In this document: positions 32,863-53,122 of the stretch, piece by piece
Layout: each line of letters starts with the position of its first letter
Position numbering within the stretch: position 1 is the stretch's first letter
Origin: Tubulanus polymorphus
Taxonomy: Eukaryota > Animalia > Nemertea
Assembly (NCBI RefSeq): GCF_964204645.1
Contig: NC_134029.1
Span: forward strand, 6,014,001 to 6,078,000
DNA: 64,000 nucleotides
Direction: 5' to 3'
The notes under the pieces: model-generated
Seen by the model: the letters and a program-made list of their open reading frames with translations, nothing else
What the model was told of the DNA's origin: nothing
Databases searched by the model: none
Program-made: the position numbers and the translations under genes

Positions 32863-32926
32863 ATGAAACGTCGTTATTTTCTCATTCTTAAAGTTCTATT
32901 TTTGTTCGCATTTATTGACCACACAG
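32863..32926 (+). CDS. CHRNA7: nAChR coding exon 1 (signal peptide)
   Basis: [21 protein letters not shown], basic then hydrophobic; phase-1 donor CAG|GTATC matches exon 2. Confidence 0.85.
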
Positions 32927-35900
32927 GTATCAGCATTCAAGTTTGCTTAGTTAAGAATAGTTAGAAAAAGCTTTGACAGGAATCGAGTAAAACATGTCCT
33001 ATTTTATGTATTACGTAATTCTCTTATAACGTGTGAGTTCTCCCAGCAGCCCTCGAATGAGCGGTCCGTCAACAAAAATTTCGGTGACGAACAAAAGACG
33101 GTGGCACAATGATACGTACGAAAAATATGAATTTTACTCAGACATCTCTGTTTTTATATTACAGCCAGCTTGCAAGGACCCTACGAAAAAGCTCTGCTCG
33201 AGTATCTATTCGTCACCAACAAATACAACATATTGGAACGACCAGCAGCGAATGACAGCGAACCCCTGGAAGTACAATTAAAACTTACTTTGCAGCAAAT
33301 CATTGACGTCGTAAGTAAACAAATCATTTTTAACTTCGTTTTTCTTTCAGTTTTTTTCTTTTTTAATCTTAAAATGGATTTCGAAAGCTTTTGTCGGAAC
33401 GGTTTTGTCAATTCAACGACGATTTCATAATCTCGTATTGTTATTCTGATGTATACGGCATCTTTAAGGACAGTTTTCAACTAAGGATTAGACGTAATAT
33501 AAGACGTGTTCTAGGAGCCTGTCGCCGCTCCTTTCCTTCTTCGTGAGAGAGACGGCTCGACACGTTTATCATCTCTCTCTCTCTCTAGTCTGACGATCAC
33601 TGGTAAAACAACAAAGACGATGAGACTTTCTTTTATTCCGGCTCATTATTGTTAGGTCTGAGCGCGTTTGAGATTTTAATTAGGCTAACCCTTTCAAACT
33701 CGTTTTTACGGTAATGGATTCGCTTCGGCGCGGTACGTTAGTTTCACGCAGGCATGGCGTTTGTTTAATTGAGCGAGATGAATTTTCCAATATATTCGAC
33801 ATGTAACGTTTCCCTCGGGGTCGCCTTAGATTCCTCTATTCATCTTCGGGGATCATCGTTTCATTTTTTCCTTTTTATACGTGATTTCGGTTGAATTCAT
33901 TTTCGAATAGTGTCGTCGTTCTCGGAGGTAGAATTTCTCATTTAAGCCGTCTATTTTTTCAACTGGATGTATCATCTTCTTTCGCTCTTCGGTCCGTTGT
34001 TATTGGTAACAATTCGTTTTTCTAGTTTGACGTATGGGCATACGGTGTTTCAGAGCTATCGGATTACTCTTAAAAAGCGCATAACGTGTCCGCAGAATAA
34101 TAGGCGATATATGAATTCATATAGCAGCCTCTTGAACCAGTACAAAACAAAAAAACAGCAAGTTTGTATGATAAATGTATAAAGAGTTTTGAAAGTGCAT
34201 CGAAACTGCGTGATAATAGTATTCATCCATTTTAGTTAATTCAGATCTTGAGTGCTTGGCTAGTATTAGCATATCAAATATTGAAAACTCAAGGGATAGC
34301 GGTGGCATATTTCAATCGGGGTATTTCAGACATTTGAATATGTACTACAGTGCGTAGAATTTCTGTGAAATTTGACAGCACAATAAATAAAACAATAGTT
34401 CAAAAAAGTGAGCTTGGATTTAGCATTTCATTTCAAATTTCCGAAGTGCGCGTATATACCGACACTATTCCAGTATTCAATTGCACAATACGATCCACGC
34501 GCTGGGTTTTTGATCATCAATTCTATTAGGATATCTTTGTCACTATCACCTTGGCGGTGTTGATCATCCCCGAACAGAATACCGAACATGAGAATCGGGA
34601 CGTCAGAAATCATCACCGCGAGTGGATCAAAGTGCGCACTTCGATTTCGCGTCGAGGCGCCGTTTCATGTTGTCGGAGAGATTAAAACGACTCGATGTCA
34701 CCGAGAGGAATCACAGCGCGCACGCGGTCTCAGGTGGTACGGCACTGTGTAGTACGGTGTTTGATACGCTTATTAAACTGGGACTCCTAAAATCCTCTCA
34801 AACGACATACGCCTTTTGACGTATCGTCAGGCTTCGAATAGCACGTCGGCCCCGGAGGAACTCATTCGGTAATAATACGAAAACGTATATGAAGATGCAT
34901 GTAGCTTTTTTGATTGGCTGCGGTCTCGTCGCTGGTGTATAACGATATTAACCGTTTTATTTCAAAGAGCCCGAATGGTAAGCGGCCACTTCTGTTTTGG
35001 AATCTTGAAAACCCAGAACGATCCTTGTGATACAGTTATTTCCAAAATCTCGATTTATTGAATTAGGCAATCAACTAAGTTAAACCCCAGTCACTTGCCG
35101 GTTCAGACTGTTTGGAAGATAATCCGCAGCCGAGATCTCCAATGTTTTTCTTCGATTTAGAGAAAAAATTCTGTAAATTCGACCGCCGATCCGATCACTC
35201 AACTACATCCGCGCTTCATTTGCTGATCTCAAAATCAAACCCCTGTTTCGCTCCCGGCAGGTGTGGTAGGTTTGTATAAGGGACACCAAATCAAAACAAA
35301 TCAAACGAAATCTACCCATCAAACAACTTACGGGATCAAACCCCATCTTAAGATTTATAAAAAAAACCGACGACGCTCCAACAAAAATCAATAAGATTTA
35401 GTATAGAAATTCATCGATATCGAGTTTTAAGAATAGAGTAACCTGTGGGGAATGACAGTCAGTTTTATATTTTCTAATCTGTCGCCAAAAACCCGATATC
35501 AATCAAACTATGATTTCCAAGTTTGGTGTCAGCGCGTGAATTTACAACGCATTCAGCTGGAATGAAAGTGAAATTTCCACTCAATTTTCTCGTCAGCCCC
35601 GCGGGGAGTAATAATTCTTAAACAGTCAAACGTCGCGGGACTCCGGCGCCGTCGTGTAAAGCGCTCTCTTATTGCCACGGATCCGTTTGATGACTTACCA
35701 GCGACGTTTTTACGCACCAGCCGGAGACAACGAAATATCCGAAAATGCATATGTGAATTTCATCGTTTCGAACAGTTGGAATTAAACGGGGGAGCCGTTA
35801 AGCAGACTCATCCCCAGCAGTGCGGAATTCAACTTGAACTTCGTTTCCCGTCCGGACAGGCACATAAGAAGACAGCAGAAAAGGTTTTTGAGATGCATGA

Positions 35901-50844: not shown

Positions 50845-53122
50845 GCGTTTATTTATACGTCGTATATTGGATTCAATGTATCGGTAACCATTATATGGAT
50901 TGTGTACGTTCACTATGAGATAGATGCAATGTTTTAAGAGTAAACTGGCAGCGGCGAATTTCTCGTAACGTATAGTCGTCGAGTGAACGCGTTTGATTTC
51001 GTCGTATGGTTTGAACAACGTTGTGATATACGTATATGATGATAATGATGGGTGAGGATGGTAGTGTGGGAAAAATGAAGGAGTTTAAGTTCTTCTGATT
51101 CCGAAAAACTGGACTTGGATTATTTTTCAGTTCTATCGAAAAAGAGCGGAGTGTTCTACGTGTTGTACGAGTATTTTTACTTTTATCGGTGGAATCCACT
51201 GAAATAAGCTGCCTATATTAAGCATAGTGGCGCTTTATATAATATGAAATATCGATTGCATCAATGATATTATAGTTTAGACGCCCTCTTGTAAGAAGGG
51301 AGTGTTCTGAGATTTAAATCATATGAAATACGCACACTCCACTCGCAAATAGTTCAGATACTTAAAAGACTAACGATATCAGTTGACGTACTGTATAATA
51401 ATGATAATGACTGTGTTGTCGTGTTCTAAGAACTATAAACTGCGGAAAGACTGGACGCCGCCATGTTTTTACTAAAGCATACAGTTCTTTGATAGTTTTC
51501 CCCTGTAGTATATACTTCCCTAGGTAGTTTTCCATCTATCAAAAAAGAACAAGCAAAATCTGTCGGTACAGTTGGCTATAAAGTATAGTAGTATGTCTCG
51601 AATATTGGTGTCACATTGTAATGTATTGCATAATTGATATTGTTACACTTAACCGGTGTGTTATCTATCATTAAGAATAAGTTTGACGGTATAGATCGAT
51701 AATCTTCATATATATTCGCTTATTATGCTATGTGTAATATATGAATATGTGACTTAACACGTGGTGTGATTGATGATTAGGTTATTTGTTGATAAATTCG
51801 GTTAGATTTTCTATTGCAAACGACGGATGAAAGAAACTAAACTTGATTTCGGGGAACAAGTCAAAGTTATTGTGATCGCACCAGTGTTGCTGTATGGTCA
51901 TTCAGATAGACACGTGCCTTTTTAGATATTTTATATACATTCGGGTAAAAATGGCCACTCGTAGTGAAGATAATAACTGTATTTCAATAATTATGAGTTT
52001 ACTATTGTTCAGTGTTGGTGATATGGTGATTGTTTAAGTATATAACATAGATACATTGAAACAAACGTAGGAGAATAGTAGAGCTATACAATGGCTGTAC
52101 ATTGATAAAAATTGAAATACCACGGCGACCACATCCGTAATTTAACCGACGCAGACATGGTACAAAAGATCACACATGGTACAAAACAAGCGCCATCTAT
52201 TGCGTGCTTTGGGATGTTCTCATGTCATCATAACACGAATTTATTTCGGGTCTGGATGGGAAATCCAAATAATGTTAGGTCTACACCATTAAAGACATTA
52301 CTTGAATATTTGCCAAATTCGCTGTGTGTTTCAAAGTACGTACGTATTACAATATGACACTAAAATTAACTACTTCTATGGTGAAGACGTAATTAAACGT
52401 TTTAATCTTTTGACGGAATGTTTGTTTGTTCTTTTATGGTTTGTATTTTCATATTTTTTCTGTAAAGATCTGCGATCTCGGTGCATTATTTTGTGTTTGC
52501 TCAATCATGATGTCGCATTATAGTTCGCACTACATATACTGATGTACTCACTATCTTGCTGCTGGGGAAAGTGATATTTTTCGACATCATCGTTGCATAG
52601 AAAAAACCACAAATTCTAAAATCGAGACCGATCATGACATTGTGTTGCTTAAACCTTAAAAAAAAACTCCTCGTCACCTGGAATCCTGTTCTTTGTAATA
52701 TCATCATTATTTATTATCAATTCCATAATGCAAGAAAATTCCAATATGTCTCCCTTCAAAATTCCATTTCATTGCGTATATTTTCTATATTTTGCGTGAC
52801 GAGTTTTTAATTTACGAACTAAGCTACCGAGAAGCCGAAATAGATATAAGGGCTTCCAACCGCGTTGCTTCCCATGAAGACTTAACAATATGTAACGTTT
52901 ATATAAGCTTGATCTTCATTTACGCAGTAATTTCTTAGCGTATCCAGTCCAGCTTAATCGAATAATGATTTTATAACATATTTAGATGATTCTTAACTTA
53001 AAAACATTTATTATTTAATATACATCTATATTTTCTGTAAACAGAGGTCATATACGGAAATAGTGATGTTGATGTTAACCCCTGCCAAATAACCAATCAG
53101 ATATCGAATTCGAAAGAAAGGT

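What the first reader, a model, noticed from the sequence alone, without database searches (positions are those of the whole stretch)
32863..51064. One nAChR gene combining two duplicated-exon cassettes with three editing-type RNA duplexes
Seen: exons 3a/3b and 7a/7b (2x2 = 4 splice forms), plus duplexes over loop E, TM2/M2-M3 and TM4. Established: Drosophila nAChR alpha6 uses alternative exons 3a/3b and 8a/b/c and ADAR recoding in loop E. Inference: this lineage has a parallel system in which both faces of the ligand site (loops C, D, E) and both ends of the pore (2' by splicing, 20' by editing) are tunable from one locus. I do not know of this combination being described, but cannot search.
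Basis: partly seen in the sequence, partly recalled or inferred. Interest (0 to 1): 0.88.

Follow-up and report, generated by a model that had tools for sequence, protein, structure and literature searches.

The report
Ancient twin-exon switch in nicotinic receptor
A ribbon-worm alpha7-type acetylcholine receptor gene carries two pairs of intact twin exons, likely spliced either-or into four receptor forms; the second pair also occurs in annelid and flatworm genes and likely tunes channel gating, whereas the proposed RNA-editing duplexes are not clearly stronger than chance.

Summary
The splicing half is real; the editing half is unsupported. The gene is an alpha7-type nAChR subunit, identical from residue 23 on to RefSeq Tubulanus polymorphus (Nemertea) isoforms X1/X2. 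Exons 3a/3b (45 nt) and 7a/7b (195 nt) are intact and give four 482-aa forms; RefSeq models of the Lineus orthologue show all four. 3a/3b matches the known insect alpha6 pair. 7a/7b, in no paper I found, recurs in the same order in Capitella, Macrostomum and four fetched loci. Across nine pairs the conserved differences lie in pre-M1, TM1 and M2 3', not in the loop C ligand residues, so it likely switches gating more than agonist recognition. The TM2, M2-M3 and TM4 duplexes are chance-level; loop E is borderline. One duplex stands out: a 42-bp stem inside the 7a-7b intron (0 of 150 nulls) that shortens 764 nt to about 140, within the 76-177 nt seen in relatives, a candidate either-or mechanism. 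The finding's start exon is not the annotated one. This scan noted exon-7 pairs before on other DNA.

The parts
32863..32926 (+). Candidate proximal first exon (signal-peptide-like, 64 nt); not the RefSeq first exon; use unverified
   Evidence: Best of 7 ATG-to-donor candidates upstream of exon 2, with the most basic start and strongest hydrophobic core; RefSeq residues 2-22 differ and were not found in the window
33165..33310 (+). Exon 2
   Evidence: matches RefSeq X1/X2
36162..36206 (+). Exon 3a (beta2 strand, loop D)
   Evidence: used in RefSeq X2, P0131
36515..36559 (+). Exon 3b
   Evidence: used in RefSeq X1, P0250
40746..40855 (+). Exon 4 (loop A), single copy here
40955..41208 (+). One 254-nt exon covering loop E, Cys-loop, loop B, loop F (equals alpha6 exons 5+6; numbering recalled)
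41767..41961 (+). Exon 7a, variant copy (loop C, pre-M1 with K at human alpha7 T230, TM1, M1-M2 loop, M2 to 3')
   Evidence: groups with Lineus 7a; not in the two RefSeq Tubulanus isoforms of the cluster
42004..42056 (+). 5' arm of predicted 42-bp intronic stem
42572..42627 (+). 3' arm of predicted intronic stem, ending 98 nt before the 7b acceptor
42726..42920 (+). Exon 7b, conserved alpha7-like copy
   Evidence: 59/64 aa identical to Lineus 7b; used in RefSeq X1/X2
44029..44115 (+). Exon 8 (TM2, M2-M3 loop), single copy; short exonic hairpin near 44056-44081 around E20' (weak)
49463..49572 (+). Exon 9 (TM3)
50407..50844 (+). Last coding exon (intracellular loop, TM4, stop)

Best explanation
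This ribbon-worm alpha7-type nicotinic receptor gene holds two intact twin-exon pairs that are likely spliced either-or into four subunits, and the 7a/7b pair is likely an old spiralian switch of the pre-M1/TM1 gating module rather than of the ligand site, while RNA editing is not supported. Shown: exon anatomy, four open frames, identity to RefSeq isoforms for 3a and 3b with 7b, tandem 7a-then-7b order in three phyla, and where the class-specific residues sit. Inferred: 7b is the default and 7a a minor or cell-specific form; 7a changes gating, desensitisation or allosteric/lipid sensitivity and keeps a cation filter (GEK retained). Inferred with lower odds (about 0.4): exclusion of 7a+7b depends on a short donor-to-branch distance, kept in relatives by a 76-177-nt intron and here by a 42-bp stem that loops out 515 nt. 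How 3a/3b are kept exclusive is unresolved (308-nt intron, no stem); splicing-factor control, possibly leaky as in the tick, is the likeliest.
For: Four 482-aa frames, GT-AG; third-position excess. RefSeq Tubulanus X1/X2 equal 3b/7b and 3a/7b from residue 23. Lineus RefSeq X1, X2, X3, X6 give all 2x2 combinations. Tandem 7a+7b in Capitella P0001, Macrostomum P0003/P0017 and unnamed P0002/P0015 and in 4 of 80 loci, 7a-type first each time, introns 76, 106, 177, 81 nt; a branch-like motif lies under 50 nt from the donor in 3 of these 4, the steric limit quoted in PMC5740500. In nine pairs seven positions are disjoint between classes: human precursor 230, 234, 242, 243, 244, 254, 264 (numbering). 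PMC11977206 places R229/T230 in the coupling linker and L243/I244 of M1 in the intersubunit allosteric pocket. 7a-type exons are the only exon 7 between neighbours in some loci, e.g. L018. Stem: -46.1 vs null -25.9 +/- 2.8, 0 of 150; mean pair probability 0.97; 42 of 42 pairs kept in a 2.9-kb fold; strongest duplex with a loop over 200 nt among 2504 tiles.
Against: 7a is in neither RefSeq Tubulanus isoform of the cluster and has a long branch, so relaxed selection here is possible. RefSeq isoforms are computed models whose read support I did not see. A single origin of 7a is not firmly resolved: the 7a/7b split was starred with 58 rows (96/94), unstarred with 51 (88/96) and weak with 25; a nemertean-only duplication was rejected with 54 rows (p-AU 1.7e-6) but not with 25 (p 0.2). 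The stem is as stable on the antisense strand (-48.7 vs -49.1), two stronger inverted repeats lie elsewhere in the window, the whole intron folds at only z -1.57, and the short introns of relatives fold no better than shuffles. With the stem formed, donor to the likeliest branch motif is still about 110 nt. Short contigs favour finding short introns. Lineus X5 skips both 7 exons and a tick includes both exon 3s (PMC13578988), so exclusivity can leak. No functional data exist for either form.
Confidence: 0.68

Rival explanations
1. One reading: splicing plus ADAR recoding at loop E, E20' and TM4, guided by exon-intron or exon-UTR duplexes, as in insect alpha6.
For: Insect alpha6 is edited in exon 5 (PMC1919356). 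Loop E can pair with 40380-40412 (-36.8; about 17 pairs in the ensemble; 2 of 150 nulls). Codons 13'-21' match the window at 13 of 18 places in L039 and L059 against 10 of 36 for the rest of the exon (Fisher p 0.003, post hoc), and all three can form a hairpin holding the E20' adenosines.
Against: TM2 64/150, M2-M3 27/150, TM4 68/150 nulls as good. The downstream loop E partner 41331-41380 barely forms in context (1.2 pairs). The loop E tile is one of 68 tiles behaving as the null; loop E codons are not conserved (0/11, 4/11). The E20' hairpin is 10 bp, 347 of 2000 synonymous recodings do as well in the window, and L039 and L059 are not independent (18 of 28 codons shared). G at 20' is absent from 44 distinct TM2 segments.
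Confidence: 0.15
2. Only 3a/3b is used; 7a is an old duplicate now silent or decaying in Tubulanus, and the intronic stem is a transposon relic.
For: 7a absent from RefSeq X1/X2 and from 28 candidates of the 7a search as an identical protein; long branch; 39/64 identity to Lineus 7a against 59/64 for 7b; stem strand-symmetric.
Against: 7a is full length, in frame, with good splice sites, and keeps the invariant loop C, pre-M1 and GEK residues despite 41% nucleotide divergence; Lineus models use 7a in two isoforms; the stem arms have no copy in the window.
Confidence: 0.12
3. The 7a/7b pairs arose several times independently within Spiralia and converged.
For: AU tests with 25 rows do not reject nemertean-only (p 0.2) or Macrostomum-only (p 0.22) duplication; crustacean-like genes have exon-7 pairs with the variant second and no K, so this exon can duplicate repeatedly.
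Against: All nine spiralian pairs share order and K230, and replace G234 by a hydrophobic residue; Capitella-only duplication p 0.043; nemertean-only p 1.7e-6 with 54 rows.
Confidence: 0.15

Closest known systems
Insect and tick nAChR alpha6 alternative exons 3a/3b and 8a/8b/8c with exon 5 A-to-I editing (PMC1919356, PMC13578988, PMC2064938)
   Same: alpha7-type subunit; tandem 45-nt exon 3 pair at the same place; two independent cassettes multiplying isoforms
   Different: Second cassette here is exon 7 (loop C to M2 3'), not the TM2 exon, which is single; no support for editing; exons 5 and 6 are one exon
RefSeq alpha-7-like isoform sets of Tubulanus polymorphus (XP_074649611/12) and Lineus longissimus (XP_064652926-968)
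   Same: Same gene (Tubulanus) and its orthologue; 3a/3b in both; 7a/7b in Lineus
   Different: 7a and the proximal first exon are not in the Tubulanus isoforms seen; Lineus also has an alternative exon 4 that the window lacks
Human CHRNA7 (PDB 43sn/7eki set)
   Same: Best solved relative (E 1.8e-148); loop C Cys-Cys, GEK cation motif; 7b matches its pre-M1/TM1
   Different: No twin exons known to me (recalled); 7a departs at T230, G234, V242-I244, L254, L264
Steric-hindrance mutually exclusive splicing (PMC5740500), and steric hindrance combined with RNA structure in Dscam exon 17 (Yue 2013, title seen only in a reference list)
   Same: Short donor-to-branch distance in relatives; a stem that would shorten the intron here
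   Different: Not tested; the folded distance here (about 110 nt) exceeds the 50-60 nt limit unless flanking hairpins also form

Membership tests
nAChR alpha subunit, alpha7 group | Neur_chan_LBD plus Neur_chan_memb domains | tested here: met
   PF02931 E 8.6e-73 and PF02932 E 4.5e-59 on P0250
nAChR alpha subunit, alpha7 group | Vicinal Cys-Cys and flanking Tyr in loop C | tested here: met
   Present in 7a and 7b
nAChR alpha subunit, alpha7 group | Closest to alpha7 among solved receptors; GEK motif before M2 | tested here: met
   alpha7 E 1.8e-148 vs alpha4 4e-112; GEK in both exons
nAChR alpha subunit, alpha7 group | Forms ACh-gated cation channels | not testable with these tools
   Needs expression
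Mutually exclusive exon (MXE) clusters | Tandem homologous exons of equal length and phase with intact splice sites | tested here: met
Mutually exclusive exon (MXE) clusters | Each copy occurs singly in transcripts | tested here: inconclusive
   RefSeq models show 3a and 3b singly in Tubulanus and all four in Lineus; reads not seen; 7a unannotated here
Mutually exclusive exon (MXE) clusters | A mechanism that blocks double inclusion | tested here: inconclusive
   Double inclusion stays in frame; introns 308 and 764 nt; stem candidate for 7a/7b only
Insect alpha6-type splice/edit system | Exon 3a/3b pair | tested here: met
   Same position and length; one-to-one orthology of a and b cannot be resolved on 15 aa
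Insect alpha6-type splice/edit system | Alternative TM2 exons 8a/8b/8c | tested here: not met
   One TM2 exon among 24 candidates in 42921-49460
Insect alpha6-type splice/edit system | A-to-I recoding in exon 5 (loop E) | not testable with these tools
   Needs RNA against matched DNA
ADAR recoding site with editing-complementary sequence | Exon-overlapping duplex clearly above background | tested here: not met
   TM2, M2-M3, TM4 at chance; loop E 2 of 150 but one of 68 tiles
ADAR recoding site with editing-complementary sequence | Raised synonymous conservation of the edited stretch | tested here: inconclusive
   Loop E 0/11 and 4/11, TM4 4/12 and 4/14; TM2 13'-21' 6/9 and 7/9 in two related loci

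The most novel reading that the evidence does not exclude
Spiralian alpha7 receptors have carried, since before nemerteans, annelids and flatworms parted, an undescribed splice switch that swaps the whole coupling-linker/TM1/pore-entrance module, the counterpart of the insect TM2 switch. Its either-or choice is enforced by distance: most species keep the intron between the twins tiny, and Tubulanus compensates for a 764-nt intron with a 42-bp stem. Together with an exon-3 pair inherited from the protostome ancestor, this gives a natural pair of alpha7 channels that differ in the allosteric pocket.
Probability: 0.3. Interest if true: 0.66.

Novelty: new variant of a known kind. Interest (0 to 1): 0.45.

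Why it matters
alpha7-type receptors are studied for desensitisation and allosteric modulation at the M1/M2/M3 interface. A natural, deeply conserved exon swap at that interface gives a ready-made pair of channels for structure-function work, and extends receptor tuning by twin exons from insects to Spiralia with a different module. The long-intron stem offers a cheap test of distance-enforced exclusive splicing. Without editing evidence, the 'splice plus edit at both ends of the pore' claim that drove the first score falls away.

Tried and rejected
No genome is held for the window. The run search listed no RNA holder: this is no evidence on expression or editing. Contigs of X1-X3 run through introns and show no splice joints; X1 is near-identical and may be the window's source, so it is not independent. 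Exon-versus-gene pairing alignment found nothing above its shuffles; RNAduplex tiles had no proper null; whole-exon duplex scoring was insensitive. Two other tiles scored well: the 7a 3' end with 41539-41573 (2 of 150; would loop out the 7a acceptor; kept as a weak lead) and exon 10 50647-50686 with the 3' flank (not followed). The 3a-3b intron has no stem (z -0.07). A single-sequence fold of Lineus 7a isoform P0115 failed (pLDDT 39) and was not used; alignment A2 was not used. One tile (TM4) was out of frame and was redone. No Rfam match. Self-resistance to nemertean nicotinic alkaloids was considered and dropped: the pair is far wider than Nemertea, and the passages seen of PMC6410017 show anabaseine mainly in hoplonemerteans, with only tetrodotoxin entries for Tubulanus. 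PMC3917985 is not held. Trees left rows out: 4 of 58, 17 of 58 dropped and 10 added, 25 chosen rows; L044 was left out of the nine-pair table as near-identical to L043.
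Full report
GENE AND ORGANISM. The + strand from 32863 to 50844 encodes a Cys-loop receptor in nine coding exons, two of them duplicated; all introns are GT-AG and the four combinations give 482-aa frames. The last exon hits a RefSeq 'alpha-7-like' protein of Tubulanus polymorphus at 99%, a palaeonemertean. RefSeq X2 and X1 equal the window's 3a/7b and 3b/7b forms at every residue from 23 to 482. Residues 2-22 differ and the RefSeq version was not found in the window; it resembles the Lineus start. 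The annotated first exon therefore probably lies over 33 kb upstream. The 32863 exon has the same 64-nt length and is the best of 7 signal-peptide-like candidates, so it may be an alternative start; this is unverified. Human alpha7 is the closest solved structure and both Pfam domains are present.

THE TWO CASSETTES. 3a and 3b share 34 of 45 nt, 7a and 7b 115 of 195, with differences concentrated at third positions, which indicates selection on both copies. Double inclusion or skipping stays in frame, so decay of frameshifted messages cannot enforce the choice. No further copy of exon 3, 4 or the TM2 exon was found among 37, 6 and 24 splice-bounded candidates. The Tubulanus cluster holds only X1 and X2, so 7a is unannotated there as far as I could see. 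In Lineus longissimus (a different class) RefSeq X1, X2, X3 and X6 are the four 2x2 combinations, X4 uses another exon 4 and X5 lacks exon 7. These are computed models; I did not see their read support.

HOW OLD. Gene models with both exon-7 copies in tandem occur in Capitella (which also has both exon 3s), Macrostomum and unnamed proteins. Of 80 fetched loci, 4 hold a tandem pair, always the K-type copy first, with introns of 76, 106, 177 and 81 nt. Other loci have a K-type exon alone between its neighbours. Trees on 64 columns separate K-type copies from the rest with 96/94 (58 rows), 88/96 (51 rows) and weak support (25 rows). AU tests are mixed: nemertean-only duplication p 1.7e-6 but 0.2; Capitella-only 0.043; Macrostomum-only 0.22; window-only 0.15. 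Shared order and shared residues favour one spiralian origin without proving it. Crustacean-like proteins P0266-P0269 also have exon-7 pairs, but with the variant second and T kept; they sit loosely among arthropod exons, and a union with spiralian 7a is not rejected (p 0.32), so a separate origin is likely but not shown. Exon-3 alternatives appear in insects, barnacle, lobster, Capitella, chiton, Aplysia and both nemerteans and in a tick (PMC13578988, passages); 15 residues cannot tell one origin from several.

WHAT THE SWAP CHANGES. In nine 7a/7b pairs the loop C Tyr, Cys-Cys, Pro and Asp are invariant, the second Tyr varies in one row, and the remaining loop C positions vary by species rather than by class. 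Seven positions are disjoint between classes: human precursor 230 (T to K), 234 (G to F/L/V), 242, 243, 244, 254 and 264 (M2 3'); 2' is T in 7 of 9 7a copies and S in 9 of 9 7b copies; GEK is always kept (numbering). PMC11977206 (passages) puts R229 and T230 in the coupling linker and M1 L243 and I244 in the intersubunit pocket of allosteric modulators. I infer a gating and allosteric switch more than an agonist-site switch. 3a and 3b differ at 3 of 15 residues and keep the loop D Trp and the residue two after it (loop label recalled).

EDITING DUPLEXES. The finding gives no arm coordinates; I tested the best partners. The three regions fold like shuffles. Sixty-eight exon tiles scored against genomic blocks follow the null (mean z -0.12, sd 1.08). 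Against 150 Markov blocks, as-good duplexes occur in 64 (TM2), 27 (M2-M3), 68 (TM4) and 2 (loop E with upstream 40381). The downstream loop E partner hardly forms in context. G at 20' is absent from 44 distinct TM2 segments. Loop E and TM4 codons are not specially conserved in two orthologous loci, but codons 13'-21' are (13 of 18 vs 10 of 36, post hoc, related loci), and they allow a 10-bp hairpin holding the E20' adenosines. Insect alpha6 editing in exon 5 is documented in PMC1919356 (first part, passages and section 7 read) and PMC2064938 (passages).

THE DUPLEX THAT STANDS OUT. 42004-42056 pairs with 42572-42627 inside the 7a-7b intron: 42 pairs, -46.1 against -25.9 +/- 2.8, 0 of 150, mean probability 0.97, retained in a 2.9-kb fold, third strongest distinct duplex and the strongest long-range one among 2504 tiles. 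It touches no exon, so it cannot guide recoding. It leaves 42 + 98 = 140 nt of the 764-nt intron, within the 76-177 nt of relatives, 3 of 4 of which have a branch-like motif under 50 nt from the donor (limit from PMC5740500, passages; a 60-nt limit in PMC13762713, passages). Against it: equal stability on the other strand, other inverted repeats in the window, about 110 nt still between donor and branch motif, no conservation test possible, and no unusual folding in the short introns. I put it at about 0.4.

WHAT IS KNOWN. 3a/3b and the editing precedent are published for insects. For an exon-7 pair I found no paper in five searches (listings and abstract starts only); PMC6896357 on lophotrochozoan nAChRs has no discussion of splicing in the passages seen. 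Two searches on editing in spiralians gave nothing on this gene (listings). PMC11802352 was seen as passages. Subscription papers and supplements were not searched. Earlier notes of this scan report exon-7 pairs in a worm-like animal, an arthropod and Owenia; they are leads, not support, and I had found the Lineus, Capitella and Macrostomum evidence before looking. None matched the intron-stem idea.

VERDICT. A real 2x2 twin-exon alpha7 gene; a new variant of a known kind, already visible in genome annotations; the editing claim is unsupported. Interest 0.45.

Noticed in passing
window 61684-63906 (+), runs on to a further exon: TRIM2/3-like gene: RING, B-box, filamin and NHL repeats in one long ORF
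   Followed up: partly
window 35030-35340: About 300-nt repeat on which many contigs pile in X1-X3; diverged copies at 5930-6171 and 8032-8234
   Followed up: partly
window 14757-14889 and 7340-7513: Short inverted-repeat elements, the two strongest duplexes of the window; the second has a partial copy near 17644-17745
   Followed up: partly
window 44361-44591: 230-nt (AT)n run in the intron after the TM2 exon
   Followed up: no
window 41539-41573 with 41908-41949: Possible duplex that would loop out the 7a acceptor (2 of 150 nulls; pair probability high in a short context, lower in a wider one)
   Followed up: partly
window 1-32862: No clear coding gene and no RefSeq first exon; probably a very long first intron
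   Followed up: partly
L018, L032, L036, L037, L040: Only a 7a-type exon directly before the TM2 exon; in L018 it is the sole exon 7 between its neighbours, so 7b seems lost; TM2 carries Q at 16'
   Followed up: partly
L014, L020, L034, L038, L045-L055 (part), L067: A related gene with a single exon 7 of the 7a kind (K at 230 in most)
   Followed up: no
L012, L017, L022: Arthropod-like loci with two to four TM2 exons; L017 and L022 also show two copies of the exon before exon 7
   Followed up: no
L043 725-830 and L044 2469-2645: Near-identical 7a-7b introns; L044 has 70 extra bases after the donor followed by a second donor-like motif
   Followed up: partly
P0017 (Macrostomum): Gene model with two TM2 exons as well as two exon 7s
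   Followed up: no
P0050, P0126-P0130 (unnamed Logan cluster): Members vary M/V at 22' and I/V in loop F (both compatible with A-to-G) and D/E (not compatible); editing or alleles cannot be told apart
   Followed up: no
L047: Paralogous gene with apparent duplicates of the Cys-loop exon and several TM3 exons
   Followed up: no
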